From Phoronis australis (lineage: Eukaryota > Animalia > Phoronida): a DNA stretch of 64,000 nucleotides. This document shows, piece by piece, positions 1-64,000 of this stretch. Position numbers and translations under genes: made by a program. The DNA lies in contig NMRA01000198.1 in assembly GCA_002633005.1 (NCBI GenBank), positions 70,045 to 134,044 of the forward strand, read 5' to 3'. Within the stretch, counting starts at the first letter, position 1, and each line of letters opens with the position of its first letter. A model generated the notes under the pieces. It did no database searches. It was not told where the DNA came from and saw only the letters and a program-made list of their open reading frames with translations.

Positions 1-1858
1 ATCTTGCAACGTCTAGTACAGAGTAATTCACTTTCCCCTATGAGAGAATTTACAGAAAAAATAACAAATTCACCTTTTTTGAAATACGTGTGAAGGAAAA
101 ACTCTTTGGTTACCACAGAGTTTCTAAGCTCCATCCCACTTATGATAAATGCATGCATCCACTCACACACAGTTTAAAGGTCACATTTTCCATGATATAA
201 GATAAATCTACTAGGTCTATGTCTTGCCATACCAAATATGGAGATGGGCTTTGCCTTGCGAGAGAAAAATCGACAATGAAAGTGGAGAGCAGTCCACAGA
301 TTGTCTTTTTTGAAATTTGAAACTGAAAGAAAATGCTTTTAATTAATATCAAGAGATTGAAGTTTAAAATCTTTACAATCAAATTTTAAAAGTACCTGGT
401 GAGCAGGTTGTATTCTGTTTCAGGGGCAGAGAACCACTTTCAATAATGTAATTTTAAATTTATTTAGTCCATTTATCATGTTCCAGCCCTTTTCAACACT
501 GGCATTATTACGTGAGGCATTAAGTAAACTGAACATGAAGTAATGGACTAAGCTTCTCTCAGTATTAAGTAATCCCATATTTAAAAGAAAAGCTTGATCA
601 ATACATTCAAAGATAATGCCTGATTTGAATAAAGTAAACAACCCAAGTAGATCAGACGCAACACATGTTTTACCAAATGGATTCAAGAATACCAAACCAC
701 AAATTGACATGATATTTAGTTAATGCACAAGATTAAATCTGACATGANTGATAACAGCTTTTTGGTAACTTGCAGGTGAACCAAACAATTTGGGAGGAGA
801 AGATTGTCTGCAACTTCACATTGGCAACAGTCAGTGGAATGATGAACGGTGTGACAACAAGCACAACTTCATTTGTGAAATTAATTTGTAATTGAATATG
901 AATTAACCTGATGACAGCTTCTCCAGAAATTGTCACCTTACAACGGTTTTTTAATGGAGCTGTACACATATCACAAATAGAGAATAACATTGGATTGATT
1001 TGTCATAAAATATGGGCAATAAACTTGCCAACTCCAAAAAGAGGTGAATATACAATGTTCATGGAATTAATACAACTTTAAAGAGGCATGGCTTGCGAAA
1101 GCTTGTCAAAAATATCTTTTAAAATTACTCAAGAAAGTACAATCTTGCAATGTCTAGTACAGAGTAATTCACTTTCCCCTATGAGAGAATTTACAGAAAA
1201 AATAACAAATTCACCTTTTTTGAAATACCACAGAGTTTCTAAGCTCCATCCCACTTATGATAAATGCATGCATCCACTCACACAGAGTTTAAAGGTCACA
1301 TTTTCCATGATATAAGATAAATGTACTAGGTCTATGTCTTGCCATACCAAATATGGAGATGGGCTTTGCCTTGTGAGAGAAAAATCGACAAAGTGGAGAG
1401 CAGTCCACAGATTGTCTTTTTTGAAATTTGAAACTGAAAGAAAATGCTTTCAATTAATATCAAGAGATTGAAGTTTAAAATCTTTACAAACAAATTTTAA
1501 AAGTACCTGGTGAGCAGGTTGTATTCTGTTTCAGGGGCAGAGAACCACTTTCAATAATGTAATTTTAAATTTATTTAGTCCGTTTATCATGTTCCAGCCC
1601 TTTTCAACACTGGCATTATTACGTGAGGCAAAAACTAAACTGAACATGAAGTAATGGACTAAGCTTCTCTCAGTACTAAGTAATCCCATATTTAAAAGAA
1701 AAGCTTGATCAATACATTCAAGGATAATGCCTGATTTGAATAAAGTAAACAACCCAAGTACATCAGACGCAACACATGTTTTACCAAATGGATTCAAGAA
1801 TACCAAACCACAAATTGACATGATATTTAGTTAATTCACAAGATTAAATCTGACATGA
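1..1858. repeat. Near-identical direct duplication (1-747 vs ~1142-1858) across the single n at 748; contains part of a dispersed TTAA-AG-ended DNA-transposon-like repeat
   Basis: The sequences align almost base for base with a few SNPs and indels. The same repeat family recurs at ~3900-4370 and inverted at ~41040-41378. Confidence 0.85.
776..891 (+). CDS. Terminal exon of a C-type lectin gene (lectin 0); upstream exon lies outside the window
   Basis: Acceptor ttgcag|GT at 771-777 reads (G)EPNNLGGEDCLQLHIGNSQWNDERCDNKHNFICEINL* with EPN, WND and FICE motifs. Same phase-1 junction as the five complete paralogs. Confidence 0.88.
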
Positions 1859-3142
1859 ATCTGCATAATTTGAAAAAAAAAACTATTAAAACGTTTGCCA
1901 TGATAAAGTTGATTTCAATTTGTTACTCACATCACAGGTGATTTCTGGGCACGGTATGTCAAAAATGGAACGGCTCAATTATGAGCCATGCACAGACAAC
2001 AAGTCATCCTCTGCTGTTCCTTTACGTGGGGGGGATCTCTGTGGAATAATGGGCCCTGGGGGAAGTAACTGGGTCTAATCAAGCTCACAATGCACTGTCT
2101 TCTAATTTTCCTGAAGAATTTCAGGCAAACATTTGAACAGTTCATCAGTTGTTCAATTCAGGTATTCCAGAAAAATTGGCATTCTACCGTTAGTTTGCTT
2201 CTAAAATTGTGGTGTGCTCTTTTGGGTCGGCTTTCGGAGCCATGAAATATTGCATTACCTATTGGCCAATTTCCCCGACTCTTCAATAAACTGTTCCTTT
2301 CTTCCACGAGGTTGCGTACGTGTCATAACAATCGGAATTGGTTTCATTTCATTAAAAGTTATTAGCATTTTAATACCAGCATACCCCATTTGCTGCGAAG
2401 CTCTCACTACTTCCCGAGAGATATAAAAAAATTTCAGTAGGAACTTGCGCGTGCGGGTCACAAGAACATTGTTTTTAAAACGACAGACTTTTCTTTGTTA
2501 CAAAAGACGGAGAATTACGGGTAACGGCTAGTCAGTAGTATGCTCGAGTATTGTAGCCCTGGAGATCTATAGTTCATGACTGAATGCTGCTTCCACCACC
2601 TAGTGACCTTTTGTTAGTTAAGTCTCTTGGTCAACAAAACAGAAATGATGACATCGTATTGGCTAAGATTCATGATATTTCTTTGGAAAATATATTAGGG
2701 CATAACGTATTACTGGGATTTCAATTTCAGAAGTCATATAAATTGAAAAATCATCAGCTTTAGTCCATGATAATGTAAGTTATTTCAGTCAGTTATTTAT
2801 TGTCCTGGTTGTCGTGTTCTACCCAAAAGAAGCAAGATATTGAAAGATTCTGTCTACTATGATGCATATTCAAATATATTAACAAGGTACATAGTGTACA
2901 GTACAGGCCAAGTTTATGCTTGAAGCTATACCTGCATGTATGATTCTTCAACTCCTGGATTTACTTATCAAGTACAAATATCAATAACACATCCTAGCAT
3001 AATTAAGTGCAATTTATTAAGATTTAAGATAACGCCTGACACTTGTTATCATTTTCTTTAAACATGACTGGGTCTTATTAATATTGGCACACGGTGACAT
3101 TACGTTTGGTACCTGTGTCTGACAGAAGCAACTGTTTCCAAA

Positions 3143-4737
3143 ATGGTCTATAAAACAATCTTTGTATTGGGTTTTGTGGTCAGTGCTGTCTTGACCGCTG
3201 GTCTGCACCATGATGCAAATGGCAGTGGGAGTGAGTGTCTAGACATGAAGGCTGAAATTCAACAACTGAAACTGGCTTTAGAAGGGCTGAGGAACTTGAT
3301 GGTAGAACAACTATCAGCATTCAAGTCAGAATTGTCAGAGACAGCATCAAAGGGGGGAGAATGCTGTCAAAAAACACTGGAGACCTGCAAGCAAGCGGCT
3401 TCCCATGTGCAAATCAACACGGGAGGCTCTCGACAAAGTTGTGAGTCAATGGGTTACACGCCCTTCAAGACTTCATGCTACAAAATCTTCCGTGAAAATT
3501 ACAAATGGCGTAATGCAATGAGCCAGTGTCATCAAGATGGTGCCCATCTGGTAGACATTGAAAGCAAAGAAGAGCAAGACTTCATCCAAGGATTGATAGC
3601 TCATGGCAAGACCAACAATGGCTATGTACCCAAGCAACTCTGGATCGGTGGCCATGATAGTGTGACAGAAGGCAACTTTGTATGGGAGTCCACGGGCAAG
3701 AATGTAACGTACACAAACTGGATGCAAAGTAAGTGATTCATCTTCGAAAATAAAAAAATAAATAAACTAGATACAGAACACACAATTGAAAGCTAATCAC
3801 AAAATAATACCAAAAACTGAACAACGGAAGTGTGAAACACAGATACATCAAGTGCAGATTGTATCAAGTCCAAAAATTTTCTAATAAAGTATGTTCTGGC
3901 AACTATTCTAAATACCTTGATTTTCCACAATAAAGGGAAACGGATGGATTATTCTCACTGTTCTTCTGACAGTTTTCTAGAAAAAATCACAAAATTCACG
4001 AGTTTTGAAATACGCATGAATGAAAACTCTGTGGTTAACACAGAGTTTGTGGTTACCACAGTCTCTAATCTCCCTCCCACTTGTGATAAATTCACGCATG
4101 TGTTCATAGTCAGTTGCTGAGAAGTCGCTTGAAGTCAAAGGTCACATTTTCCATGAAAGGGAAAAGTGGTACGTCTATGTTTTGCCATACCAAATGAGCA
4201 GACGTGCTTTGCCTTGTGGAAGAAAAATCACATGACGTGTATTTGATAGATTGTTTGTTTTTTGAAGTTTGAAACTATAAAAATACTTTGATATTAAAAT
4301 AAAAGATTTTGAGGAACAAATATCTGGTGAGCAGGTTGAATTCTCTTTCAGTGGCAGCAAACCACTTTCAATATTTCATTAGTTTTTGTTTGTTGCGTTT
4401 CAGGCTCCTATAAGGAGCAGAAGAGACGCAGTTCCCACATTACTCTCACGCAATTTATCATGATTTTAAAAAAGTGAAATCTCTTATGGAAACTGCTAAT
4501 TTACAAAACAATAAAAAAATTATCTGTTTTCTGAAATGGATATTTCTGATTTTGAAAACAGTAAACCAAGATCTTTACTATTCCTTCCATAACTATAGCA
4601 ACAGTTTTTTCTATAAATCAGATGAGCCAAACAGAAGAGGCAATGAGGACTGCATCGAGATTTCAGCAGCAAACGGACAGTGGAATGATGAAGGGTGTGG
4701 AGCGAGGAATGGATTTATTTGTGAAAGAACTGGCTAA
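3143..4737 (+). CDS. Secreted C-type lectin (lectin 1; perlucin/tetranectin-like, EPN type); exons 3143-3728 and 4622-4737
   Basis: Signal peptide MVYKTIFVLGFVVSAVLTA, heptad-like coiled coil, CCQKTLETC neck, then CYK..W..A...C...GAHLV.I.S.EEQ.FI...WIGG.D...EG.FVW. Donor A|gtaag at 3728 and acceptor tcag|AT at 4621 give EPNRRGNEDC...WNDEGC...FICE*. Confidence 0.93.
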
Positions 4738-6130
4738 TACAGACTCCAGTTAATTTAAAGATTAACCCTTGGATTGTCACCTGGTTGTGTTTACAAACAT
4801 CATATCTCACTATATCCTGTCTAAATCATGATAAATCTATTGACCTTGACATTAAACTTAGTATTTGATAGATGAAACTGATTGACTTGCTTAGGGTGTT
4901 GTCGTTGAGAAAATCATATTCATTGTCTCGTGGAACTCGCAGGCATCCTCAGCTTCTGATCTTCCCCAATACACTATATATAATACTACAAGTTATGACA
5001 CTCCGGACTAGAAATTCCACGGGTGCTTCACTTCAGCCGTCCATAGCAAACACAAAACAGAGGTACAACAATCCATGAGGATTGTTCTTTCTCCCAATAC
5101 CATTTACGGTGTCCTGTTCCACCGAGTTCGCAAGAAATTTGCAGTCAAAGCACAACAATCTTTCCAAAAATCTTGTCCAGAGCATTAACTCCCTGGTCTC
5201 AAGCAAAGGGTACGGAATTATCTGATGAGTTACGGATGAATGGCAATTGCCAAGTTATCGATGCCGTGACTTTCTGTGATGAATCGACAATTTCTGTTCA
5301 TCCGTAACATTTTTTATGGCAAAAATTTTCCTTAGTTCAACCCCAATTGGAATTTCCTTGATTCTAAAGAATGTGACATGGGCCAATTTGGCGTTCATAA
5401 TATTTATTATATATTGGACAAAGCATTTCAGATCAACGTATCAGAATTATTTCACAGATCACAAAATTGTAGAAAAGAGCCGACAATGCAGAATTTTCAT
5501 GTGCCTCCATAGTGTTAAAATTGAGGTAAACACTCAAATGTCGTTTGATCAATTTGTGACAGCCAGTATTGTCTATTTCCAAATTTTTGGTACAAGCTCC
5601 AACCTTGAGCAAACTATTTTTTACTGTCCAAACTGGAGAATTTTTATAGTTGAAGTCCAAGTATATATATTATGACCCGTAGAATGAAATAAAAACTTTA
5701 GAATTTGAGTAAAAACACAAAATTTTAACTGGTTAAGTCACCAGTCTTGATGTCTATGAATGTACAGCAGACAACAGCGAGGAATTGGTGACTTGTAATA
5801 AAATTGTACTTAAGACAGAGTATTGTGTCGTAACAGCTCTAACCTAATAACTCCATCAAGTCTATTCCAACGAAGATAATCAAATAAATGTATTTTTGAA
5901 TGTGAAACTGATAATTTCCCTTTCTCTGAAATTCATCAAGAATTTGACTTAACTAAATTCCTCGTGCTGATACAGTAAAACATTCTGAATGAACATAACT
6001 GTTGCGATAGTAAACGATATCGAGATCATGGGCATTACCAGATGTATCCACCATATAATAAAAGATAACTCAATTCCGCAGCTATCTATACTGCTTTCAA
6101 AAAGATATATTCACAGTCCGGTGTGGACTG

Positions 6131-7344
6131 ATGACTCTACCCGGAAAACTTCAGCTTTGCGTGGCATTGTCGTTTATTAGTTTGGCATCACAAAACCACT
6201 GGTCAACCCCAGAGCTAGATGAGGGTCAAGTCAAGCAAATCATTGAACTAATAAGACAACTGCAGATGTCACAGGAGAAACTTAAAGTCCTAGTAGCCAC
6301 CAGCATGAAGGGTCTGTATGAAGAGACTAGTAAGGCCAAGAGTGCAAACCAACATTGTCCTATACCACCACATGTTAGCACTTGCCAAAAGACAGCCAGT
6401 GACATCAAGGAAAAGTACATTAACTTGCTGGACAGGAAGTGTCCAGACAACTACCAGCGCTCTGGTCACACTTGTTACAGGGTTGATTCTGGTCCAGTTG
6501 ACTGGTGGTCAGCATTCAGAGAGTGTGACAGAGATGGTGCAGACCTTGTGTCTATAGAGACACCTCACAAGAATGAGGAAGTGAGAAGCCTGATGACAAA
6601 CAGGGTCGAATCAGTGTGGACAGCTGGTAATGACCAAGTACGGGAGGGCAAGTTTGAATGGGCCTCCAAAATGGAGACAGCAATGAACTATACTAATTGG
6701 AGAAAAGGTAAGCATGAACAATTTACAACTTACATCGTAAATTGCACATGAAAGTTACTAAAATTTAAAGGCTTCTTTTTCTTTGCACTAAGTAGAGAAT
6801 TCAAAGATGACTTACTACAAGAAAATGTCATCGATTGTTTTTCTAATAGTGTTATGTGTCCAGATGGTAGGCTGTGTTGCTGGGAGTGATTATTTAAAAG
6901 TCCAATGGCAGTGTTTCAAACTGATCTGACACTTAGTCAATTAACTAGTAACTGAATGATGTTATCAGTTTCCCACTTGTTTCACAAGGACCTTTCCAAG
7001 TTCAGCCAATAGGGCTACAGAACTTGCATGGATTATGGACTCCTGAGAATGCCAAATTCCAGACCTGTAAAAATTATGGAATTCTGCAATATATTGGAAT
7101 GTTGCTAGTATATCAATACAATGTTTCTTGTTGTGAATCCAACATCATAAGACAACGAAGATATTTGAAGAAAATCTGAGAAATGTGACATGAATGAACT
7201 AATTTATTTAATGAATTGTTACTTGTAGGGCAACCCAATAATTACAAAGGAACACAAGATTGTATCAAAATTTACAGCAATGGAGGTTGGAATGATGATG
7301 AATGTGATGATCAAGCTGGATTCATCTGCACAAAGAATGTATGA
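6131..7344 (+). CDS. Secreted C-type lectin (lectin 2; QPN type); exons 6131-6707 and 7229-7344
   Basis: Signal peptide then QNHWS, coiled coil, HCPIPPHVSTC neck and a C-type lectin domain. Donor G|gtaag at 6707, acceptor ttgtag|GG at 7228. Exon 2 reads (G)QPNNYKGTQDCIKIYSNGGWNDDECDDQAGFICTKNV*. Confidence 0.92.
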
Positions 7345-7640
7345 TGACAATATAGAATGTGTGATGACAATATAGAATGTATGATGACAATATAGAATGT
7401 ACGATGACAATATAGAATGTATGATGACAATATAGAATGTACAATGACAATATAGAATGTATGATGACAATATAGAATGTATGATGACAATATAGAATGT
7501 ATGATGACATTACCTAATGTATGAAGACAATACAGAATGTTTGTCAAAAATACAGAATACTTCATGGCAATATGTACTGTGTGAAGACCAATACACGTAT
7601 GGCAACAATACATGTGTGATGAGGATGCATATGTCCAATG
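7335..7640 (+). repeat. 20-bp minisatellite (ATGATGACAATATAGAATGT), continuing degenerately at ~9360-9580
   Basis: About 8 near-perfect units at 7341-7500 followed by decayed units. The array resumes after the element at 7648-9356. Confidence 0.93.
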
Positions 7641-7647
7641 ACAGTAC

Positions 7648-9356
7648 ACAAGAGCAACGCGGAGCATTGAAATGCGCCCACGAATGCAAATGGTGTGTTT
7701 TTAGGGTTATTTATTTGTATCTTAAAAACGGTCACTATATGGTGCAAAAACATACAATTCATCCAAAAACAGGTACATGCCATATTTCATAAAAATTTGT
7801 CAATGAAGAAACTTCAGAGAAACAAAATTAAGGAAAAATGCCTCTAGTGGGCACAGTGTCCATTGGATCCCCTGAAAGTCGTCGTCGTCTGTTGTTATCT
7901 TCATATAAATACACTTACTAAATTTAGTAAAGATCCTGCAGTGGGTTTAGGAGATACAACTATGGGTGCAAAACACAACTACCACTAGGAGGCACCACAG
8001 TAGTCAGTCACCATCATCAAAGGTCATCTTCACACTGAGAACAAATATGCCAATTTTCAAATGATTTGGTTGATACAGGAGTGGACAACAAAAACAAGAT
8101 TTGAAAACAGCAAAAAAAATGGCCACTAGGTGGTGCGAAATACCTCGATTCCATTCAAAAACAGGCATATAGCATCATCACACTAATAGATGCCAATAAT
8201 TAAAATTTTATGAAAATCTGTTAAGGACCTTTAAAGATACGTACATACTGAGTTAAACGTAAAAAACTAAAATTGCCACTAGGGGGCACAGCAGTAGTCA
8301 GATCTGTCCGAAAGTCGTTGTCATCCGTAGCCAACATCATATAAATACACTTGCTAAATTAAGTAAAGATCCTGCGAACGGTTTAGGAGCTACAGCCATA
8401 GGCGCAACAAAAACAAAACTGCCACTAAGAGGTGCCACAGTAGTCGAAATCATCGGAAAATCATCGTCAACCATCCTCTTTGTAGTAGCACATACATGCC
8501 AATTTTTAAAATCATCCTTCGAGCGGTTTGGTTGATAGAGGGATGGACGCAAAAAACAGACTCGAAAACAGTAAAAATGGTCACTAGGTGGTACAAACTA
8601 CGTCGCATATATCCGAAAACGGATAGCGTCACCTCACTAATAGGTGCCTACGTATTAAATTTCATGAAAATCCGTTAAGGACTTTTGAAAATATAAACTA
8701 CTAGGTAAACGTAAAAAAATAAAATTGCCATTAGGGAGCACAAAAGTCATCGTCGTCCATTGCTAACATCATATAAATATACTTACTAAATTTCATAAAG
8801 ATCCTACGAACGGTTTAGGAGATACAGCCATAGGTGCAATAAAACAAAACTGTCACTAGGAGATGCCAAAATACTTGAAATCGGCGGAAAATCATCGTCA
8901 ATCGTCCTCTTTATAGTAAGCACAATCATTGCCAATTTTCACAATCATACTTTGAGCGGTTTGGTTGATAGAGGGGTGGACGCAAAAAACAGTAAAAATG
9001 GCCACTAGGTGGTGCAAACTACATTGAATCCATCCAAAAACGGGAGAATAGCGTCATCTCACTAATAGGTGCCTACATAACAAATTTCACGAAAATCCGT
9101 TCAAAATTTTTGAAGATACCAAGGTAAGCGTAAAAAAATAAAACTGCCACTAGGGGGCACACCGGTAGTCTGATCCGTCCGAAAGTTCGCTCATGCCGTC
9201 CCATTCATGTATGAAACATATGTGCCAAATTTCCAGAACGTATGTCAAAGGGTTTTGGAGATAGAGCAGCGGACGCCGGACGGACGCTGCCCGAACGGAC
9301 AGACAGACGGAGATGAAAGCGTAATGCGTCCACATATAAATATATGGGCGCATAAT
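7648..9356 (-). mobile_element. Non-autonomous Helentron/DINE-1-like (HINE) element with internal ~145-bp tandem subrepeats
   Basis: Terminal ACAAGAG plus degenerate hairpin, subterminal inverted repeats TGCGCCCA...TGGGCGCA, GACG/GACA microsatellite near the other end, and a central tandem array. A second full copy lies at 31443-33163. Confidence 0.7.
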
Positions 9357-10069
9357 AATTGATGATGACAATACATGATGTATGATGACAATACATGATA
9401 TCTGATGACAATACAGAATGCATGACAATATAAAATGTATGATGACAATACAGAATGTATCATAGATAAGCATAATGTATGATGACAATTCATAATGTAT
9501 GGTTACAATTCGTAATATGTGATGACAATACACAAAGCATCATGCCAATGTATAATTCACCATGACAGTGCAGAATGTATCAAATGAATGCAGAACACAC
9601 TCCATCACAGCAGTTCACACTTGAAGACATTAAGTACTTAAAGTTGCATTTTGCCATGTTTTCCTGGCTAAAAACAAAAATCAAATTAGGGCTTTTGCTC
9701 TCATAAAGCTGGTCTCATGATATTACTCAGCGTCTCATACTCAGTGTCTCATAATATAACTCAGCGTCTCAAGAACATGTTTCAGAGTTTGTGGTTCGAA
9801 AATGTGGCACTGTAACTTATCACTTGAGTTGTCTGCTCATTTGGCAAGAATTCAAGATAAAATGAACAATTGGAACTATTTTCCAACCCCTTGAAAAGCA
9901 CAGCTTTGTTGGTAATCCAATATCAAAGCATTATGCAAACTTGCAGTTATGCGAACTTTTGAGTAGGAGCATATGGCAAGTACACAAGGACATGTATGAT
10001 AACTTATCAAATAGCTCGTATGAAAGCATTCAAACTTCAGGGCTCTCCAACTGAGGGAGACAGAAAGCA

Positions 10070-11203
10070 ATGATCTCAATGGTGTCAATATCTCTTCTGG
10101 TATCACTAATGGTGACCAGCTCATGGCAGATGGAAGATGGCAGTGGTGGAGTTGATGGTAGTGGTAACACCATCAATGAACTGACGAGTCAGAAGATACT
10201 GGAGATGGTAAAAGAGGCAACTACCGCACAACACAACTTGCAAAATATTGTGGACACCAAGATAGATGAGCTCAAAGTTCATATGGAGACCTTGGCTAAA
10301 CAGAACAATAGATGTTGCAAAAACACACTGAACACATGTGAAACACTGGCAGAGAGATCAAGAGGAAAAGTAGGGACAGATGGTTGTCCATTTGGCTACA
10401 TTAACCATGACAACAAAACATGTTACAAACTTGGAGACTCCCAAGTTGACTGGTGGACTGCTCTTCGCATATGTCGACAAGATGGAGCACACCTGGCTAC
10501 CATAGAGACTATGGAAGAGAATGAGTACCTGACACTAACTGTCATGGAATCAGACCACGTCAAAGAAATGGCTTGGATTGGGGGACAAGACATGGTAAAG
10601 GAAGGGCACTTCAAATGGGAAGACAGTGGTGACAAAATCAAGTATTCGGCTTTCCAAAAAGGTTGGTATGAACATAGCTTGCATTAAGATAATATCCTAA
10701 GCATCTAGTAAAGGAAGCGCTCACATTCGAAGTCTGAAAAACAATGGTTGCCATTACACTAAATATGCATAGCAACAGGATCACAGGAGAATTAGAAATT
10801 GCTGGCAAGATATTTGAATTTACGAAGATTACTTGTAGGGTGATACCACGTTATGTGTCTCATTATCGGAAAAAATATTGACTGCCAGAGAGTACACGTT
10901 CAGTTTGTTGTTCTAGTAACTCCTACATTTTTGTCACCTCATGGTGAAGACATGACGAAATCATCCTCTTGGTAAACTTTAGTGAAAATGAATTTCACAA
11001 TGAGGGGACAACTACTGCAGAATTTCCCTGAAGTCACTTCATCAGTGCTAAGTACATGTGCCCCCTTTGTATTTGTAGGAGAGCCCAATAACTACCATGG
11101 AAATGAAGATTGCCTGGCCTTGTACAAGAAACAAGCACCAAACTGGAATGACTTGAGATGCAGCTTCAAAACAACCTTCATTTGCGAGAAGAAGTTAACA
11201 TAA
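10070..11203 (+). CDS. Secreted C-type lectin (lectin 3; EPN type); exons 10070-10661 and 11079-11203
   Basis: Signal peptide, coiled coil, CCKNTLNTC neck, CPFGY..CYK...WW.A...C..DGAHLATI...WIGG. Donor G|gttggt at 10661, acceptor ttgtag|GA at 11078. Exon 2 reads EPNNYHGNEDCLAL...WNDLRC...FICE*. AATAAA lies ~30 nt after the stop. Confidence 0.92.
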
Positions 11204-12701: not shown

Positions 12702-13168
12702 GGCCGTCCACACACAAGCTTCCCAGCTAGAATAAGTTGCACCTGGAATGAGCTGTCACTAGGTTTGAGTGCTGTCTGAACATTATTTAAACTAGTGCAA
12801 CTTACCAACTAGTGCAACTTACCAACTTGTGACAACTTACTCCACATTACCAAGGAGAAGTAACTAGTTCTAAAGTAACTTGCGCCACTTGAAATCCTGG
12901 AGTGGGCACAAAAGTGGGGTAGGGCGAAAGTAATCATCAGCTGCAATTAACTACAGAAGTTTTCATGGGCCGCGCGCTATGGGGGCTAGGAGAACTGTAG
13001 CCACACTTTTTTCAGTGCTGCACCTCCAATGGTCTATGGGCACACACAGCAACAACTTGCGCCTTACCCTAGTTATCGGACATGTATGTGTACACTTAAA
13101 AGTGGGATAAGTTGCACTAGTGCACTAGTGTAAGTTGTTCTAGTGAAGGCTGTGTGTGGATGGGACTG
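12702..13168. mobile_element. Degenerate MITE-like element with imperfect terminal inverted repeats
   Basis: GTCCACACACA..CTAGAA(T)AAGTTGCAC at the left end versus GTTGTTCTAGT..TGTGTGTGGAT at the right end; internal TAGTGCAACTTA / TAAGTTGCACTA inverted motifs. Confidence 0.45.
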
Positions 13169-14367
13169 AAGGGGTGGACTCAAGAATCAAATCGACATTG
13201 AGAAGACGTTGTCACCTTCTCAATTGAAAAATATTAACCAAAGTTTGTGAAAATCCATCAACGACCTGGGTTGATATTAAAAAAGAAAACAAGAGAGACA
13301 CACAGGATGATCATTATCTACTAAAGGGAGCAATATTCATTAAGTAAAACCTAAAATGGTCTCTAGGAGGCGCAAAGCAAGTCAGCAATTCTGTTCTCAA
13401 TAAGAAGGCACCTTTCATCATGATTCTTCAAGGACAAGCGAACGACAATGAAAAGATGCGAAAATTTGGTAGTGGATATGTCTCCTCGAGGGTTATCCGG
13501 AATGTGTTCCATTTCTCGCTCTAGCTTGCCGTTTTTGAGATATTTCAAATTTACTGATCTGAAGTCTGTTCTTTTATTGACTGGATTCCACACTGCAATT
13601 TTTTGTCAATCACATACTTGCTATAGGTTGCATTTTATAGCCGATCAACACAATTTATGCACAACATGAAAAGGTCCATTTCAGACAATAAATTGCACTG
13701 TGGTGACTATTTTTGGAACGATTAGTTACAAAGCTCTCACTCCGTGGTCCTTTAAATTAGGAGAATCTTCCGAAATTTGATACTTTTTGTCAGGGGCTTA
13801 TGGAATCCACCACCCACTTCTCATTTTGACTAATTGCTCTCAAATTATTCAAGATTTCATCTGATTACTGCTCTTATATTGACCGATTACTCAGTGAACT
13901 TTTGCTAGTTTGTTATTTCTTGTGTGTCATGGTTGTCAAGGAAGTGCATGTTGGCGCTGTTGGTTTTGTCATCCAAGTCTTATTTCTCTTTTTCATTCAA
14001 TTTTACCAAGAGATGCTCCGTAGATATTGGAGGCTAAGTTATCAAAACCATGCCTGGCTTAGCATTGCCTTTAGTGCCCAGTAGTATGCAGCCATATCAT
14101 TTTTCCTCAATTTACCCATAGTGGTAATTATCTGAAAATAATTCCATCTAAAGGTAGATGACAGGTGCTACTGCTGCCTTACAAAGTTAGTGACACGACC
14201 AGTCAAACCGATTACCTATTGCCCCATGACCTTTTGCCCCATGACCTACGTCTGGTTATAATCAAACCACATGCTCAGACTATGGGCAAAGCCAGGTGCA
14301 GCAAAATCAAACTTAATTCAAGGGTGACACATAATATTAAGAGATTTTTCAACCTGTAGCTATAGTG

Positions 14368-16314
14368 ATGGGTCCTTTAGCAAGGCTCTTTATGATTAGC
14401 ACACTATGTTCTCTCACAATTCTGACCACGCAAAACCACTGGTCAATGCCGCAGCAGAATGACGACAACGACAAAGCTACCATGGCGCAGATCAGTCAGC
14501 TACAGAAGACAATACAAGATGTCAAAGCACTTGTCACATCAAACATTAAGGATGTGAAAACTCAACTTGTGCAGGTCCAAGGCACTGTTCAGCAGTGTCC
14601 TGTTCAGCGTGCTAGCACCTGCCAAAGGACAGTGAACAACTTCAAGCAAAAGTACACCAACACACTAGACAGCAGGTGTCTACCAAACTACTGGCGCTCT
14701 GGTCACAGTTGTTACAGGGTTGATTCTGGTCCAGTTGACTGGTGGTCAGCATTCAGAGAGTGTGACAAAGATGGTGCAGACCTTGTGTCTATACAGACAT
14801 CTAAAGAGAATGAGGAAGTAAGAAGACTGATGGCGCACACAGGCGGCTCAGTGTGGACAGCTGGTAATGACCAAGTACAAGAAGGCCGCTATGAATGGGC
14901 CTCCAAAATGACGAGAGCAATGACCTATTCTAAATGGGGACCCGGTAAGTAGTAGACATACATCGTTAAGACATATGTTGAAAAAGCACAATAATTGTTA
15001 AATTATAGATACAAATTCGTATCACGTTGAGCAAGTTAAATCTTATTACTGGCAAGTTGATGATGACCAATGAATGCATACTGAGTATTCATGGCCACTT
15101 TTTATTCTACTTTTCATCTGACTATAACTGTTCAATGATCTCTGTGTACTGTAGTTGAATCACCAGGAACAGTTTGGCTACTTTTAATAAACAACTGTCA
15201 CAGAATTTTGAAGAAACCAAATCCAAAGCCTAGAGCACTGTATAGACTGTTCTTAATAACAAAAAAATGCAAGGAAAAAACAGTAGTTTGACAAAGAAAC
15301 GATCAACACCAACAAAGATCAAGTTAGTGGGTGGTGTAAAGGAGCGTAGAATTGTTATATTTCGTATTCAGCTCAAATTCGATCTTGTGTCCCAAACAGT
15401 ACTTCATCCTCGCCATCTATGTTTTTCAACTAAATCATAATTTGACAGCTTCAACGTCTATTCGATATACTACTGTATCAACCCTCATAATGGAAAGTTC
15501 CTACAAGTCAATCGAGCTATAAATTCAAGACAATCAGAGAGAAGGAAAAATTTAAGAACTAATAGCGTCCTCCACCTATAATCCCACAAATTTCCATTCC
15601 TAACAAAAGCAAGATGTTTTTGATGAGCTTGCGACATTCAATTTGTAGAACAATGAATAGAAAATTAAAAAAGGAAAATGCTTGCAGGATGGACCAGTAG
15701 GTGGCAGATGGTCAGCTGTACAGACATTCAGAAATGTTTGTCAGAGCACAAAGTGAAATCATTTTACCATTTAGTAACATTTTGCAAATATGTCAGAACT
15801 ATCAATTCGACTGAACTATCAACAGTTTTTAACAATTTTTCCCCAGGTGACAAAAGTAGAATATAATTTGGCCATGGTTAGATCTAATGGGTGACAAACT
15901 GTGAAAAATATACAAGTTGTCATCACAATATCGATTAATTTAGATTGGTTTGACCTAATTCTTCCAGTTGAACAGTGTCATAAAAAACTACAGCAAAGCA
16001 TGATGGGAGCATACAACAGGCTCCAGGCTGCTCTTTCATGGTATTCAACTGTTGTGGTATGTAAGGTTAAATGTAGGATGTGCAGTTTTTATTTTACGAA
16101 CTGAGCACCACAAATGCTAACCCAGGGCTATCTTTCTTAAAGAGTATCATTCTCCAAAATGCTTATAGTAAACAGTTGTCATACAATTTTTACAGGAGAA
16201 CCTAACAACTACGAGGGCCATGAAGACTGTATTGAATTCACTTCAGGTGGAACTTGGAATGATAATGGATGCAACAGAGCAATAAATGGGTTCATTTGTG
16301 AAATGAATGCTTAA
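14368..16314 (+). CDS. Secreted C-type lectin (lectin 4; EPN type, close paralog of lectin 2); exons 14368-14944 and 16196-16314
   Basis: ATG at 14368, signal peptide then QNHWS, QCPVQRASTC neck. Donor G|gtaag at 14944, acceptor tttacag|GA at 16195. Exon 2 reads EPNNYEGHEDCIEFTSGGTWNDNGCNRAINGFICEMNA*. AATAAA near 16343. Confidence 0.92.
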
Positions 16315-18582
16315 TGAGTATGTGCAACATACTGAATTATTCAATAAAGATGTATTGGAGAAAGAATGGATGACATGTTCATTAAGTCTTGTGAGAATTT
16401 GAAGTACCCTAATATCTACTTCTCTTTCTTTCTTGTTTCTATGAGAAATGCAACAGCATTCAGTTTTCAGACAAAATGGCTCTGTATCGAGAAAGCAACT
16501 CCACTGACCAATGTGAGGAGTGGCTATCTAGGGGTGTGTGCCAGTGAACGGGTGCGCGTGTGTGAGTGACTTGGTGCGCCCTAGTGATAGGCTATCTAGA
16601 ACTAAGATGACAACTATACACACTATCAACCAAACAGAGGAGAAATTATCTCAGGCTGACCATTTCTGATTCCATTTGCCAATGGATGAAAAAAGTCATG
16701 TCACTTGGCAACACCAAAATATCTCCAATTTGTTTATTTCCACATAAAAGTTGACTCAACTATGTTCAAAATGATTATCAGGACCAAAAAAATTCCATGA
16801 TAGTTAAAACCAGACAGTATTCACAAAATTTGAATTATTCCATGAAATATGAAGTTTTGAATGGAATTCACATATTTCCGGATTAGATACCAGAATTGTA
16901 ATATTTCTTGGTATTTTAAATGCCAATGAAAACATATTAAATGCTATCAAATTCAAGACTGATTCTGATCACAACTCCATTGACGATCACTTTGCAGCAA
17001 ATATGGTCAAGTAGTTCTACATTTTATTTCAAGGTGAGCTGTTCTCCTCGTTTTGAGAAACAAGTGGCGTGGTGGGCTTATAAATTTTTAAGAAACCGGA
17101 AGAAATTGAAATGGAACTGTATTGAAATGGAATGGAACTAAAATGGAACATATGTCAATGTCAATTTCTTAACTGGATTGCTACCAAATGCTCTTCCAAG
17201 GTTAACAGACACTGTAACCATATTATCATGCTCATCGGAGGTTTATAAACATTACCATATTACCATATTCATCCGAGGTTTAAAAACCACTACCATGTTA
17301 CCATGCTAATCCGAGGTTTAAAAACAATCTGTACTGCCACTCTCATCCGATGTTGAATTGAAACCAAAGGTCAGTCAGTATCTCAAGACACTGGCAATTC
17401 ATTTTTTAAATTTGCAACTTTAGGATTGACTTAATTTTGAAGCATTATGTTGAGTTTCTGATGGTATGACGTTATTTATAGTGTGGTCACAGTAACGAAC
17501 ACACCACAGCTGATTATATACGGTTACATTGTAGTTCAATTCACTTTTTGTTTTTAGGCAGGTCAAATAGAATTTTGAAAAAATCATTGTCAATAGATTA
17601 TTTACCTTAAAATGATCTATCAGTCACTTATCTGAGTGTGAAGAATGACATTCACTTAGAGTGCAGCCCACACAATCGAGCAACACCACTAGCACAACAT
17701 GAAGTTGTACACAGCTGTAGGTAACATGCTTCAAATAAGAGAAAACAGAAATGTGATATTGTGTGCTTCACTGGTTCCACAAGCTGATAGTTGAGCAGTT
17801 GAGAAGCAATCATAATTAAATGTGATGATTAACTGAAACATAAACAAAGTGTTTCATATAACTCCACAAAGCAGCATCAAGCAACAGGGCATCAGAGAAA
17901 TAGCTATGGATGCAAAACAGTAGAACTGACACTAGGAGGCGCCAAAGTACTCAAAAATGTCCAAAAATCATTACTTGCAATACCCTTCCCAGCAAGAACA
18001 TATTAACTATCAAATGAATTTTCATGACTATTAAAGTGATTTGGGCGATAGATGGACACCGAAAATATGCTCCAAAATAATAAATATGGCCACTAGGAGG
18101 TGTACATGAAAATCAAGAAAGGGTCAAAACTCTGCATGACAAATCAGAATATGGTGGAGAACTGCATTACGGCACACTTCCTTAAAAGTTTGCTTGAACA
18201 CAGAAGCACAATTTTATTGTATGATTGTGTGAAAATCAATAACAACCCACAATTTGGGAAAGTATTTAATTTGGTTGAATCACAAATGCAGATACTTAGA
18301 CAACACCACTAGCTTTTAAGAAACCGCTTGGAAACTAAGGTCCCGCAAATACTTTTTCAAACACGAAAGCAAGGACTGTTACAGGTTGCTGATGCACATC
18401 TGAAGTGACAACGTGTGGGAAGAGGCAACAAGCAGACTCTTATCAAACTTTGACAACTCAGACTATCCTATGACAATCTGGTGGAACAAAGCAGCTGATT
18501 AAATAGGTTGATAGATATCCCAGGGACTGCTCATTAGATTTTAAAACGGAAGTTGACAGTCCATTGCAGAGAGTGGCTCAAT

Positions 18583-19491
18583 ATGAAGGCCTCCCCGAGT
18601 ATAATCTTTGTGTTGATCGCACTAAGCACAGTATTACAACCATCAAGTTGTGCTGATGTAGCCCGCAGCATGAGAATGCTCCAAATGCTACAGTCGTCAC
18701 TTGAATCCTACATCAAGGAACAGCTGGCACTAGTCAAGAAGGATATAAGTCAACTATCCAACATCAAGAAGGCCGACTGTTGTCAGAGTCAAAACAGCAA
18801 CTGCCAGGAAATAGATGGTCTGATGCAGAGTATTCCCAAAGAAGAGGTATGTCCACCTCAATACAGTCGTCATGGCAACTCCTGTTACAAAGTGGTTAAA
18901 TCAGGCAAGCCTTGGTGGGATGCTCTGAATCACTGCCGTATGGAGCGAGCTCACTTGGTGGAAATCGAGTCATTACAGGAACAGAAGTTCGTCGAGAAGC
19001 TAATCAACGACAACGGTCTTTCGGTAGTGTACTTAGGAGGCCATGACCTTGGACAAGAGGGAACATGGACATGGGTTTCCACAGGAAGCAAACTCTACTA
19101 CAGTGACTGGCGACCACGTAAGTCAAATATGAGCAGACTACATAAATAGAACACAAGTCAAAACAAAGAAATGTTCAGGCATTGCTTACAAAATCCAATA
19201 TTGGACTAAACAAGTCAAATACCAACAAAGGGAAGAGTTTCAAAAATCAGGTCAGCCATAGACCAATGAAAGATATTAACCTTTAATATTTAGATGTTCT
19301 ATCCTATACTCATTAGATGCAACAGCAACACATCCGCATTACTACTTGTACTTGCAGTAGAGCCCTACAACGATGGCAACGTGGAACACTGCTTGGCCTA
19401 TCAGAGAGCTTACAACACGCCTGGTAGCTGGAATGACATAACGTGCGATGGAAATGTACCATTCATTTGTGAAAAGCCAGCGAGGATTTAG
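18583..19491 (+). CDS. Secreted C-type lectin (lectin 5; atypical EPY motif); exons 18583-19117 and 19358-19491
   Basis: MKASPSIIFVLIALSTVL signal, coiled coil, CCQSQNSNC neck, CPPQY..CYK...WWDA..HC...AHLVEI. Donor C|gtaag at 19117, acceptor cttgcag at 19351-19357. Exon 2 reads EPYNDGNVEHCLAY...WNDITC...FICE*. Confidence 0.92.
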
Positions 19492-20127
19492 TGGCAAGGA
19501 CAAGTTCACCAATTAATTGAGACGTGAAGAAGAAATTTCAAATCAAAATTCACGAACAATGACCATGTGATTAAAATTAATGTGAATGTCAGAATTGTTC
19601 ATCTGGCTAATATGTTGTCAAATTATAGCAATTTCTTTTTTTTTTGCTTCACTCTTTTAAAGTAACAACAGAAACACTTGACGAAACCCAGAATGGGGTT
19701 CATCACCACTGTGCACAAATTCAAACACACTTTAACCGGGGTTAATTGGCGAATGAACAAATGAACATCTCAGATAAGAGTTGGTATGTCAATGAATGAA
19801 CAAGCACACTCAGGCTGAAGATGATCAAATGATGAATGCCCGAGCACAAGTACACACAGATACCCCCCACAATGACATGCATAGAAACACAGACACTGGC
19901 ACACATAGATACACACACTGGTACATACAGACACCCACACAATAGCACACACACAGATGACCACAGCCATTGAAAAATAAGCAATGCATTGGGCTACAAC
20001 TTGACCTTCAAACCGTAACCAATAACAACATAGATTTTTTTCTACCATTAATTATTTTATTTTTTAAATATCATAAGATTGTTAAGTTAATTTGCATTTT
20101 TCTGACACTAAAACACAGTCAACTTAC

Positions 20128-23100
20128 TCTGGTCTAACTGGTAGTCAACGCCCTTTACTTGGCTTTTCTTCATCATGTAGTATTTGAGTGAGGTCAGCCA
20201 AACTTCAATTTTCTCCTATCAAAAAGTATCACAAAATTTAAGATTATAGCAAAGAAAAATGTATGTAAACAAGTCTGCAGCACGGACGCTGCATAACCAC
20301 CATCCAGCAGTTAGACTACATTGCATGGCAAACCATAATTTTTTTAACCTAAATTTTTAACTCCAAACGGAAGGTAACTATAAGACACATTCAAGTTCCT
20401 GTCCATCCACTTCAAAATTTAGAAAACATTATCAGCACACTCTGGCCTTGCTTCTTGTCTTACCACGTAATAACACAACGTGATATTCACAAATGGTTCA
20501 ATTCACATCATTTTCTTTCCACGAAAGGCGTTGCGCTGAACATGATTCACTGATTCTGGAGAATAGGTTGGCCATTCGGTCTCTAGAGGCATTGCAGTAT
20601 AAGATTATCACTTACTTAGACACGTGGTATGTTGGTTGCAGATGTTTCGACCTGGTCCGTCAGGTCTTTATCAATGAATGAGGTATTTCCTGCCTTTCAC
20701 TGGTTAGAAATGTTTGAATACAGGGGGGGGGGAAGTGGAGACCTTGGTCCCAGTTCAAGAGGGGGCGCTGAATGCTGATGTTTATGGACTCTTTTAGCTT
20801 GCGAGCATACCAGTTCTGTTGGCGACTGGGCATTCCATCTTTCTTGCGATCCTGGATGACGCAAGAGAGATGGAATGCCCAGTCGCCAACAGAACTGGTA
20901 TGCTCGCAAGCTAAAAGAGTCCATACATCAGCATTCAGCGTCCCCTCTTGAACCAGGACCTAGACTTACCTCCCATGTATTCAAACATTCTTAACCAGCG
21001 AAAGGCGGGAAATCCCTCATTCATTGATAAAGACCTGGCGGACCAGGTCGAAACGTCTGCAACCAACATACCATGTGTCTAAGTATGTGATCATCTTATA
21101 CTGCAATGATTCACTGATATTCAAAATCCAAACAAGAGCAATACACTTTAACTTGTTACATATTGAGACAAGCACAAAACACAAAATTGCCACAGCATGG
21201 AACCAAAGTCCAAAAACCAGTGGCAGCCTCAATAGGGTCACAAATGTCATCCACAACATAATTTGGAAGATACCAAAGTATAGAGTTGACAAAGAAATCT
21301 GCTATAACCACACGTTTACATGGAAAAAAAAGAAACTGTCACTAGGGGATGCAACGTTAGCTGTGCTCTCTCTCTTTAATAAGAACATGTAAACCAAATT
21401 TCTCAGAAATCCATGAAAAAGTTCAGATACTGAAACAGAAGCGAAACAAAAAATGGGGAGCGCCACTACAGTAGTAAGATCCATCCTAAAGTCAACACCA
21501 GGTGTGCTTTCCTCAATAACAATACATATTTTAAATTTCATATCCTTGTGCAAATTGGCAGACTGAGAGGTGGATGCTTAAAACTAAAAAATAACATAAA
21601 AAATCGCAGCAAACTGGGATGGTGTCGTCGTTGTCTGAAAAAATTCTATTTCTCAGATTTTTATATAAAAGTCCATTAAGGAACATGGTAGATACAGAAT
21701 GACAGTACATGCAATAACTTGGTTATAATTGCTATTGGGGAGACACAGCGGTAATCAGATCCATCAGCATGTTGTTGTTATCCATTGTCAGCTTCTCAGG
21801 AACACATGCGCCAAATTTTATTATGATCTTGTAAAGGGTGCTGGAGATAGGGCAGAGGACTCAAGACAGAGATGATGGAATTATGTATATGCCAGCACAC
21901 AAAAACCAAATGAAAGTAATACCTTGATGACCATAAGATAAAGATGTCCACCAAGCAGAAGTTCCTGGTTCATTGGGTTGTCAGCACTCTCAGCGGCACA
22001 CTCTCCCTTGGCCAGAGCAAACAGCTTCTGAGTCATGTGAACCAACAGATTGAACTTGTCCGTGTTGGTCTCCAGGTGAATACATATACACTGGCTGAAA
22101 ACATGTATTTTTGGTCATGATTCGTCAACCTGTGACCAGGTACTATAGACTAAACATGGGAACAAATACAAAGAAAGCTTCACCAAGAGAACAGAGAGCC
22201 GTGCAAGAGACATACTCTCCTAGACAGGAGTGAAGATAAGTGCGCATGGACAGCAGGCTTCATCACACAGGGAGAAACCTGTGCATGGACAGTAGGCTAA
22301 ATCACGATGGCTCTACGGTTACATAATAAAACACTAGACTTGATAATGGGTCTGCGAACGCATAATAAAATACTAGACTTGATAATGGGTCTACGAACGC
22401 AAAATAAAACACTAGACTTCATAATGGGTCTACGAACGCATAATAAAATACTAGACCTGATAATGGGTCTACAAACGCATAATAAAATACTAGACCTGAT
22501 AATGGGTCTATGAACGCATAATAAAGCACTACACTTGATAATGGGTCTACGGACACATAATAAAACACTAGACTTGATAATGGGTCTACGAACGCATAAT
22601 AAAGCACTACACTTGATAATGGGTCTACGGACACATAATAAAACACATCTATCTGATGGGTCCATGTTCAAAAATAATAAGACGATGTTTACTATAAGGT
22701 ATATGATAGCATAAGAACGCATGACACTTTTAATGAGTCTAATGTCACATCATAACATNCATAATAAAACACTAGACTTGATAATGGGTCTACGAACGCA
22801 TAATAAAATACTAGACCTGATAATGGGTCTACAAACGCATAATAAAATACTAGACCTGATAATGGGTCTACGAACGCATAATAAAGCACTACACTAATTT
22901 GATAATGGGTCTACGGACACATAATAAAACACATCTATCTGATGGGTCCATGTTCAAAAATAATAAGACGATGTTTACTATAAGGTATATGATAGCATAA
23001 GAACGCATGACACTTTTAATGAGTCTAATGTCACATCATAACATAGGACACTTACTTGTGCCTATAGCCATGTAATGACACTTACCAAGAATGTGTCTAG

Positions 23101-47400: not shown

Positions 47401-47871
47401 AAAGCACCAGCACTCATGGGTTAGGATCCATTACTATGGCGTCAGTATCCACAAGATCTCATCCGATGAAGACTTCACCTGTTGGATCGTTAGGTTTCAC
47501 AGGCTATCAGTTCGAACCGGAATACACTGATCAAGAAATACTAGAGAGGCGCCTTGAACATGCACAGGCTACGGAGCGTATGGATAGTTCTTTGGTAAGC
47601 CGAAATTCGTCAGAGAAATCACTGTCGACGAAATGTCGGCCACAGACACAGAGATGTTTCACGGCTTCATACTTGCGTACCTTTCTTTCTTCACTACCGC
47701 GAGCCACTTCCTAAGCACTTCGGGCTCTCAAGGAAGTCGAAAAATGATATATCCGCTTTCTTCGCAACTTCATAGTTTGGACAAGCGGGAACGATGCACC
47801 GCAATATAGCGGCATTCAATTTGCAGACGAACCACTGACGTCGCTGCGTCTATTCTCACCTTCCTCACAGG

Positions 47872-63842: not shown

Positions 63843-64000
63843 GGACACACGAGCGCGAGTAACTTTTACTCCAGTAATAACTTTAGACTAAACCATCGAG
63901 TATCTTTCTCCTTATCCCTGCGTTTAACAAAATAACTCGATGAACCTGAAAAAAACGACAAAGCTATTCATCTTCAATCATCCGTGATCTCCACGAAGAA

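What the first reader, a model, noticed from the sequence alone, without database searches (positions are those of the whole stretch)
776..20215. Whole C-type lectin gene array nested antisense inside an intron of the essential RNA polymerase I gene POLR1B
Seen: the POLR1B exon chain runs leftward and stops at 20128 with a canonical phase-1 donor (A|gtaag) after only ~413 codons. Lectin 5 ends just 637 bp away, and I found no further POLR1B exon (ATGN.., HFR.VHRG, CPVHTPDG motifs) in 1-20127. Known: RPA2 is ~1100+ aa and essential. Inference: intron 13 is >=20 kb and hosts at least six opposite-strand secreted lectin genes, so a fast-evolving recognition family has expanded by tandem duplication inside a housekeeping gene. 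The host's constitutively open chromatin and transcriptional interference could both shape lectin expression.
Basis: partly seen in the sequence, partly recalled or inferred. Interest (0 to 1): 0.82.

Follow-up and report, generated by a model that had tools for sequence, protein, structure and literature searches.

The report
Lectin array inside polymerase gene intron
In a marine invertebrate, five complete sugar-binding lectin genes and the tail of a sixth sit backwards inside one intron of at least 19 kb of the working RNA polymerase I gene POLR1B; they likely multiplied there from one inserted ancestor and are likely switched on and off independently of their host, a clean but known kind of gene nesting.

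Summary
Confirmed. POLR1B runs on the minus strand in 13 exons (38263-20128; 413 codons, no stop) and halts at a phase-1 donor. No later exon lies in the window. RNA reads from two runs leave exon 13 at that donor and continue in frame into RPA2-like sequence absent from the window, so the gene is intact and exon 14 lies further left. One DNA contig joins exon 13 to lectin 5 with no fork or second copy. Intron 13 is therefore at least 19.4 kb (median of the other introns 0.93 kb) and holds five complete two-exon C-type lectin genes and the last exon of a sixth. The same intron is 107 and 896 nt and lectin-free in two distant relatives. The lectins (27-31% identical, one pair 51%) are expressed in two raw-read RNA runs and absent from a third, while POLR1B stays low and level in all three: no sign of host-driven expression or interference, at low power. 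Multi-gene antisense nesting is known (KRTAP in TSPEAR; about 10% of Drosophila genes), and this scan noted a similar array in another genome (e1-7880316). New instance, not a new kind.

The parts
776..891 (+). Lectin L0, last coding exon only (EPN and WND motifs); first exon lies left of the window
   Evidence: 41-57% identical to the last exons of L1-L5; not covered by the RNA lay
3143..4737 (+). Lectin L1 (exons 3143-3728, 4622-4737; 233 aa; EPN/WND)
   Evidence: RNA depth in X6 far above X7, none in X8; its splice joint was not among the rows shown
6131..7344 (+). Lectin L2 (exons 6131-6707, 7229-7344; 230 aa; QPN/WND)
   Evidence: low RNA depth in X6 and X7, part of which may be reads of its paralog L4; joint not among the rows shown
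10070..11203 (+). Lectin L3 (exons 10070-10661, 11079-11203; 238 aa; EPN/WND)
   Evidence: splice joint in X5, X6 (16 reads) and X7 (11 reads)
14368..16314 (+). Lectin L4 (exons 14368-14944, 16196-16314; 231 aa; EPN/WND)
   Evidence: splice joint in X5, X6 (47 reads) and X7 (25 reads)
18583..19491 (+). Lectin L5 (exons 18583-19117, 19358-19491; 222 aa; EPY/WND); transcript fades out near 19600-19650
   Evidence: splice joint in X5, X6 (32 reads) and X7 (30 reads); depth profile
1..20127 (-). POLR1B intron 13, part inside the window (at least 19,379 nt if 1-747 is an assembly duplicate); hosts the array
20128..20215 (-). POLR1B exon 13 (88 nt, ends in phase 1)
   Evidence: RNA on the strand opposite to the lectins in 3 of 3 raw-read runs; loose ends at 20126 in 2 of 3
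21923..38263 (-). POLR1B exons 1-12 (38263-38174, 31004-30927, 30542-30483, 29128-29054, 28661-28545, 28228-28163, 26373-26299, 25363-25265, 24345-24250, 23928-23852, 23310-23164, 22094-21923)
   Evidence: 66% identical to Lingula RPA2 over 408 columns
7648..9354 (.). Interspersed repeat inside the array, 73% like a copy in POLR1B intron 1 (31444-33160); adds to intron length
   Evidence: heavy 90-95% read pile-up from copies elsewhere

Best explanation
An expressed POLR1B gene splices out an intron of at least 19 kb that carries five complete antisense C-type lectin genes and part of a sixth, which likely arose by tandem DNA duplication of one ancestor that landed in this old intron and are likely run from their own promoters, independently of the host. 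Shown: the host's exon chain, its splicing from exon 13 to an exon outside the window, the opposite strands, the lectins' splicing (L3-L5), their common gene plan, and a short lectin-free form of the same intron in two distant relatives. Inferred: the insertion came after the intron; copies spread by unequal crossing-over long ago (27-31% identity), with a later L2/L4 duplication or gene conversion; the antisense orientation is tolerated because the lectins' splice and poly(A) signals are not read by the host transcript; the weakly transcribed host seldom collides with lectin transcription. The proteins are predicted to be secreted (hydrophobic N-terminus, judged by eye), to oligomerise through a helical neck with a cysteine pair, and to bind mannose/glucose/fucose-type sugars with calcium (EPN/WND in L0, L1, L3, L4; variants QPN in L2, EPY in L5), likely in mucus, surface defence or particle sorting in particular tissues or stages.
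For: Exon chain and phase. Loose ends at 20126 with one identical consensus in X6 (3 reads) and X8 (3 reads); that 30-mer has 0 matches in the window at up to 3 mismatches; read through the donor it adds 11 stop-free codons that line up with RPA2 right after the boundary (2 of 11 identical to Lingula, 4 of 11 to Liolophura, including the Ala-Cys pair). The same table's loose end for lectin 5 equals the adjacent 30 bases of its first exon, which validates the reading. DNA run X1 gives 1 contig of 4,178 nt over all of 19300-20460 with 0 differences and no second contig at 90% likeness. No N between 749 and 22758. Same phase-1 intron in loci L004 (896 nt) and L009 (107 nt) and same donor in L006; exon 13 is 88 nt in the window, L006 and L009; 0 lectin hits in 11 of 11 loci. 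Five of five complete lectins share strand, two-exon plan and a phase-1 intron just before the sugar-binding tripeptide. Depth per 1,000 million letters: L5 about 30, 26, 0 and POLR1B exon 13 about 2.0, 1.8, 1.9 in X6, X7, X8. Non-repeat DNA in the lectin introns keeps the host's strand bias (A over T on +, +0.079 +/- 0.025; host introns 2-12 +0.103; upstream -0.007). Broad host with tissue-specific nested genes is the usual pattern (PMC11694760, passages).
Against: Exon 14 itself was not located: no genome is held. Junction support is 6 reads in 2 of 3 raw-read runs (X7 has no row) and the peptide match is short. The independent DNA check covers only 19300-20460, and X1 may be the source of the assembly; nesting of L0-L4 rests on the window's own assembly. 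The strand-bias support is weak: host intron 1 shows none (-0.016), the four 2-kb bins from 2001 to 10000 are near zero, and upstream bins range from -0.115 to +0.089. No close relative's locus was available, so the age of the insertion is unknown. No named ortholog of the lectins was found (none at E<=0.001; the 150 listed hits are all long multi-domain proteins). The fold model is poor (mean pLDDT 52). Tissue, stage and ligand are unknown.
Confidence: 0.78

Rival explanations
1. Functional coupling: the nesting is real and host and lectins regulate each other, by open chromatin from the host or by polymerase collision that lowers POLR1B (or induces a short host transcript) in lectin-secreting cells.
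For: Lectin transcripts reach about 15 times the host's depth, so collisions are possible in expressing cells. Interference is the usual reading of nested pairs in Drosophila (PMC5174743, passages), and a nested gene induces a short host transcript in C. elegans ceh-10/polq-1 (PMC12274878, abstract and section 13). Bulk RNA would hide an effect confined to few cells.
Against: All five lectins are at zero in X8 with the host on; L1 differs about 24-fold between X6 and X7 while L3-L5 do not; host level on/off ratio 0.79 (about 0.31-1.99, crude counts). Strong anticorrelation is rare among mammalian pairs (PMC11694760, passages).
Confidence: 0.11
2. Partial misassembly: lectin 5 is nested but a false join somewhere left of about 16.5 kb (for example at the 7.6-9.4 kb repeat) brought the other lectins in, so the true intron is shorter or the array is spread over several introns.
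For: The assembly has overlap artefacts at 4 of 4 single Ns and a multi-copy repeat inside the array; DNA was laid only on 19300-20460.
Against: No gap from 749 to 22758; paralogs on one strand at regular 3.0-4.3 kb spacing on both sides of the repeat; L2 and L4, the closest pair, flank it.
Confidence: 0.06
3. The lectins are missing from run X8 because that individual lacks or has very different copies of the array (presence/absence variation), not because they are switched off; then independent regulation is less well shown.
For: X8 is a different sample with its own variants in exon 13; reads were counted only from 90% likeness; no DNA of that sample was seen.
Against: All five diverged genes vanish together, while X5, X6 and X7 carry them at only a few per cent difference; L1 varies about 24-fold between X6 and X7 on its own.
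Confidence: 0.08
4. The window holds a truncated duplicate of POLR1B that ends at exon 13, next to an ordinary intergenic lectin cluster; the working gene is elsewhere.
For: Only 413 of about 1,130 codons are in the window; RNA differs from exon 13 at 2-3 of 88 bases per run, two of the four variants changing a residue (V>I, K>R).
Against: No stop or shifted frame in 13 exons; one DNA contig only, no fork and no second copy at 90% likeness; the variants differ between RNA runs like alleles, and lectin 5 shows similar levels.
Confidence: 0.03

Closest known systems
Human KRTAP cluster inside introns of TSPEAR, chromosome 21 (PMC8657448, passages; the primary paper by Shibuya et al. 2004 was seen only as a reference line)
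   Same: A tandem family of small genes enlarged by duplication inside the introns of an unrelated host gene.
   Different: KRTAPs are intronless structural genes spread over introns of a non-core host; here the genes keep an intron, are predicted secreted lectins, and sit in one intron of a core RNA polymerase subunit gene.
Opposite-strand nested genes of Drosophila, C. elegans and mammals (PMC5174743, PMC13343718, PMC11694760, passages; PMC12274878, abstract and section 13; PMC8527503, passages)
   Same: About 10% of Drosophila and 5% of mammalian genes are nested, 71% of Drosophila pairs are on opposite strands, several internal genes per host are common, C. elegans has 567 opposite pairs, hosts are broadly and nested genes narrowly expressed.
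   Different: Typical internal genes are single young duplicates, often RNA-derived; here six old paralogs with a shared intron fill one internal intron (13th), more than 20 times the gene's median intron.
C. elegans ceh-10 nested in polq-1 (PMC12274878, abstract and section 13)
   Same: A tissue-specific gene lies antisense in an intron of a nucleic-acid polymerase gene.
   Different: One gene, not an array; it induces a short host transcript, which was not tested here.
Small secreted single-domain C-type lectins of bivalves and other lophotrochozoans (PMC10140915 and PMC12842671, passages); perlucin-like and Acp29AB-like clusters
   Same: Single C-type lectin domain with EPN/QPN and WND motifs; about 100 C-type lectins per genome are reported for brachiopods and phoronids, so an array of six is unremarkable.
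   Different: A roughly 70-residue helical neck with a cysteine pair precedes the domain and has no atlas hit; no ortholog was identified.

Membership tests
Opposite-strand nested (intronic) genes | Whole coding sequence of the inner gene lies within one intron of the host | tested here: met
   L1-L5 lie left of the exon 13 donor with no host exon among them; host splices to an exon outside the window. For L0 only the last exon is shown; for L1-L4 it rests on the window assembly.
Opposite-strand nested (intronic) genes | Host gene is functional and spliced across the intron | tested here: met
   Expressed in 3 of 3 raw-read runs; in-frame continuation at the donor in 2 of 3, one of them a lectin-expressing run.
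Opposite-strand nested (intronic) genes | Inner genes are transcribed separately from the opposite strand | tested here: met
   Stranded reads: lectins first-mate minus, POLR1B first-mate plus; joints shown for 3 of 5 lectins.
Opposite-strand nested (intronic) genes | Genomic position of the next host exon | not testable with these tools
   No genome held; the exon lies outside the window.
POLR1B / RPA2 | Orthology to the second-largest subunit of RNA polymerase I | tested here: met
   The named hits are RPA2/Rpl135 or RPA2-domain proteins; 50-66% identity over the chain; groups with Lingula RPA2, 97/95. No RPB2 or RPC2 rows were in the tree.
POLR1B / RPA2 | C-terminal catalytic-side domains (residues ~415-1130) | not testable with these tools
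   Outside the window; only 11 further codons seen in RNA.
C-type lectin (PF00059) | C-type lectin domain with conserved cysteines and WIGL-like motif | tested here: met
   Pfam above cut-off in 5 of 5 first exons; cysteines aligned.
C-type lectin (PF00059) | Calcium site 2 motifs (EPN or QPD type, and WND) | tested here: met
   WND in 6 of 6; EPN in 4 of 6, QPN in L2, EPY in L5; meaning of the motifs from PMC12842671.
C-type lectin (PF00059) | Calcium-dependent sugar binding and secretion | not testable with these tools
   Needs protein assays; signal peptides judged by eye only.
Collectins (recalled definition) | Collagen Gly-X-Y region before the neck | tested here: not met
   No collagen repeat in 5 of 5 sequences and no such Pfam hit.
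Neck-oligomerising lectins such as tetranectin or DC-SIGNR (recalled definition) | Coiled-coil neck that forms trimers or tetramers | tested here: inconclusive
   Heptad-like hydrophobic spacing, a long predicted helix at residues 22-83 in a low-confidence model, profile match extending into the DC-SIGNR neck (1sl6); oligomer state not modelled.

The most novel reading that the evidence does not exclude
The array is kept inside POLR1B on purpose: strong antisense lectin transcription in secretory or immune cells throttles or truncates the mRNA of an essential RNA polymerase I subunit, tying lectin output to ribosome production, while the essential flanking exons shelter the array from large deletions. 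The bulk data exclude only a more than about three-fold organism-level drop.
Probability: 0.08. Interest if true: 0.75.

Novelty: new member of a known kind. Interest (0 to 1): 0.33.

Why it matters
It is a well-supported case of an old multigene family living inside one intron of a core housekeeping gene, with the host always on at a low level and the guests switching from zero to about 15 times its level. That makes it a handy natural test bed for whether antisense nested arrays interfere with essential hosts, and a warning for annotation: gene callers are likely to split POLR1B here. It does not reveal a new mechanism; nesting of several genes, antisense bias and lectin expansions are all documented.

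Tried and rejected
No whole genome is held, so exon 14 could not be mapped. Hidden POLR1B exons in 1-20127: none; the weak plus-strand hit at 47457-47654 (E 0.016-0.085) is on the wrong strand and side and was rejected. Further lectin genes or fragments in the window: none below E 0.2. Lectin orthologs: two word-based searches gave nothing at E<=0.001 (22 and 1,362 candidates); the profile search gave 25,189 hits whose best 150 are all 698 aa or longer multi-domain proteins, so no lectin tree was built and in-place expansion is not shown phylogenetically. Atlas search of the neck alone: no usable hit, which shows neither absence nor novelty. Fold model too weak to search with. The run index listed no holder on record as RNA; the raw-read runs came in by species label. 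Run X5 laid no contig on POLR1B exons 12-13, which proves nothing since records can be filtered. In one search a transcribed repeat crowded the joint and loose-end tables (318 joints and 1,802 loose ends not shown), so joints of L1, L2 and exon 12-13 were not seen. Depletion of poly(A) signals on the host strand: 18 against 23 in intron 13, no clear signal. No tRNA and no Rfam family in the window. Seven of the 11 metagenome loci (L003, L005, L007, L008, L010, L011 too short or not informative; L006 gives only the donor) and two intronless ones (L001, L002) gave no intron length; only L004 and L009 did. L004 and L009 group together and apart from the named bilaterian and cnidarian rows, without an outgroup, so they are unplaced. 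Literature searches for this arrangement returned nothing relevant: 1 unrelated paper; 0; 1 unrelated by title; 0; 0; the library lacks most subscription papers, and no supplements were read, where gene models of this locus could be listed. No complex prediction was sent.
Full report
What was checked. No genome is held for the window, so I rebuilt both gene sets from the window, tested the host with public reads, and looked for the same intron elsewhere.

The host gene. A search with exon 12 returned 31 RPA2-type proteins of animals. tblastn with the full-length ones maps exons from 31004 down to 20128 and nothing later in 1-20127. With the first exon at 38263-38174, the chain has 13 exons, 1,240 nt, no stop, GT-AG at 12 of 12 introns and a phase-1 donor after codon 413. 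It is 66% identical to Lingula RPA2 and 50-60% to the other rows and groups with Lingula at 97/95 in a 19-row tree (97 in a second quick tree). The animal is therefore likely a lophophorate (brachiopod or phoronid kin); this was not taken further. As a power check, exon-14-sized queries detect exon 14 in two distant loci at E 1e-11 and 8e-10 but give nothing better than E 0.15 in the window apart from an overlap with exon 12.

Is the host intact? Three stranded raw-read RNA runs with the same species label (X6-X8; 18-19% of each read) cover exon 13 on the strand opposite to the lectins. In X6 and X8, three reads each leave the window at 20126 with the same 30-base consensus; X7 has no such row. 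The consensus has no match in the window at up to three mismatches. Read through the donor it adds 11 stop-free codons that align with RPA2 directly after the boundary: 2 of 11 identical to Lingula and 4 of 11 to Liolophura. This is a short match, but it starts at the exact donor and recurs in two samples; the same table's loose end for lectin 5 equals the adjoining 30 bases of its first exon, which shows that the table is read correctly. DNA run X1 lays one 4,178-nt contig over all of 19300-20460 with no difference, no fork and no second contig at 90% likeness; by its record coordinates it would reach from about 16,500 to 20,670, but only the laid part was aligned, and X1 may be the source of the assembly. 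Together these make a truncated duplicate unlikely: the gene is expressed, appears single-copy at exon 13, and exon 14 lies outside the window.

Intron size. The window has no gap from 749 to 22758. The single N at 748 separates 1-747 from a 94% copy at 1142-1858, and the other three single Ns are end-to-start overlaps of 94-98%, so 1-747 is probably a second haplotype. The intron is thus at least 19,379 nt, against a median of 927 nt for introns 1-12 (range 316-7,169). The intron is old: of 11 metagenome loci, L004 and L009 have a phase-1 intron at the same place, 896 and 107 nt long, and L006 has the same donor; exon 13 is 88 nt in the window, L006 and L009. None of the 11 loci holds a lectin hit. 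L004 and L009 are distant and unplaced, so they show the ancestral short state but do not date the insertion.

The lectins. L1-L5 are complete two-exon genes of 222-238 codons on the plus strand; L0 is a last exon only. All five hit Pfam Lectin_C above the cut-off. Each has a hydrophobic N-terminus (by eye), a neck with heptad-like spacing and a cysteine pair, and one lectin domain split by a phase-1 intron just before the sugar-binding tripeptide. Motifs are EPN/WND in L0, L1, L3, L4, QPN/WND in L2 and EPY/WND in L5; EPN is associated with mannose/glucose binding and variants are common in bivalves (PMC12842671, passages). Pairwise identity is 27-31%, except L2/L4 at 51% with a 60-nt stretch at 98%, which suggests old duplications and a later one or gene conversion. 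Shared strand, intron and 3.0-4.3 kb spacing point to tandem DNA duplication. The atlas's nearest clusters are Acp29AB-like and perlucin-like lectins; no ortholog was found, the neck has no atlas hit, and the fold model is weak apart from a long neck helix. About 100 C-type lectins per genome are reported for brachiopods and phoronids (PMC10140915, passages).

Expression. Splice joints were shown for L3, L4 and L5 in X5, X6 and X7; those of L1 and L2 were not among the rows displayed. Depth per 1,000 million letters in X6, X7, X8: L5 30, 26, 0; L4 22, 20, 0; L3 9, 8, 0; L2 2.2, 1.7, 0; L1 12, 0.5, 0; POLR1B exon 13 2.0, 1.8, 1.9 and exon 12 1.9, 1.0, 2.4. So the lectins are not carried along by the host, one member varies on its own, and the host is not clearly lower where the lectins are on (ratio 0.79, roughly 0.31-1.99 from about 24 estimated reads). 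This is bulk RNA of unknown tissue; a cell-level effect is not excluded, nor is absence of the array from the X8 individual. A strand-composition test gave weak extra support for long residence in the host transcript: lectin introns +0.079 +/- 0.025 and spacers +0.051 +/- 0.014, like host introns 2-12 (+0.103) and unlike upstream DNA (-0.007), but host intron 1 shows no bias and bins from 2 to 10 kb are near zero.

How it most likely works. A founder lectin gene likely entered an existing POLR1B intron in antisense orientation, where its splice and poly(A) signals are invisible to the host transcript, and expanded by unequal crossing-over; repeats added length. The spliceosome removes the whole block (shown by the junction reads, including in a lectin-expressing run). 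The lectins likely use their own promoters in particular tissues or stages and are predicted to be secreted, calcium-dependent sugar binders. Low host transcription would keep collisions rare. The insertion, the order of events, the promoters and the protein function are inferred.

Comparison with what is known. About 10% of Drosophila and 5% of mammalian genes are nested (PMC13343718, passages); 71% of Drosophila pairs are on opposite strands and multiple internal genes per host occur (PMC5174743, passages); C. elegans has 567 opposite pairs, one of them in a DNA polymerase gene (PMC12274878, abstract and section 13); a ctenophore has 2,357 nested genes in 1,654 hosts (PMC8527503, passages); hosts tend to be broadly and guests narrowly expressed (PMC11694760, passages). 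A whole family cluster inside a host's introns is known for KRTAP in TSPEAR (PMC8657448, passages). An unchecked note of this scan describes a receptor array in an ASCC3 intron of another genome (e1-7880316). Five searches found no paper on lectins in POLR1B or on a nested gene in this subunit, within the limits of the library.

Verdict. New member of a known kind; interest 0.33.

Noticed in passing
window 748, 22759, 49593, 62844: All four single Ns flank near-identical copies (747, 285, 1,260 and 603 nt; 94-98%), the mark of unmerged overlapping contig ends; local duplications in this assembly should be distrusted.
   Followed up: yes
window 61704-63887 (-): SLC52 riboflavin transporter-like coding region (Pfam PF06237); its apparent two overlapping frames come from the 603-nt overlap at N 62844.
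   Followed up: partly
window 38683-39030 (+): A 116-codon open frame about 420 nt from the POLR1B start, head to head; looks like a coding exon of a divergent neighbour, no Pfam hit.
   Followed up: partly
window 7648-9354 and 31444-33160: A 1.7-kb repeat with internal units of about 430 nt occurs in introns 13 and 1 of POLR1B (73% alike) and draws hundreds-fold stranded RNA depth at 90-95% likeness in all runs, so copies elsewhere are strongly transcribed; the intron 13 copy is flanked on both sides by a short tandem repeat that begins at the L2 stop.
   Followed up: no
window 6373-6712 and 14610-14949: L2 and L4 are 83% alike over 340 nt with one 60-nt block at 98%, against 47-62% in their 5' parts: possible gene conversion in the first half of the lectin domain.
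   Followed up: partly
window 3143-4737: L1 depth differs about 24-fold between runs X6 and X7 while L3-L5 are level: separate regulation or an allele difference.
   Followed up: no
window 14335: The X5 contig of L4 begins with 22 letters not placed on the window: an upstream untranslated exon or a leader; letters not shown.
   Followed up: no
protein P0028 (unnamed): A read-through open frame whose likeness to RPA2 ends at Lingula residue 408, and a fragmentary Batillaria model (P0030) with a block ending at 408, again mark the intron 13 position in other animals.
   Followed up: partly
window 56850-59500: By eye, repeated fragments resembling a non-LTR retrotransposon end and a decayed Tc1-like transposase (labels recalled; Pfam gave no supporting hit).
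   Followed up: no
window about 37650-37730 (-): A tRNA-like stretch in POLR1B intron 1, by eye possibly a SINE head; ARAGORN and Rfam report nothing.
   Followed up: partly
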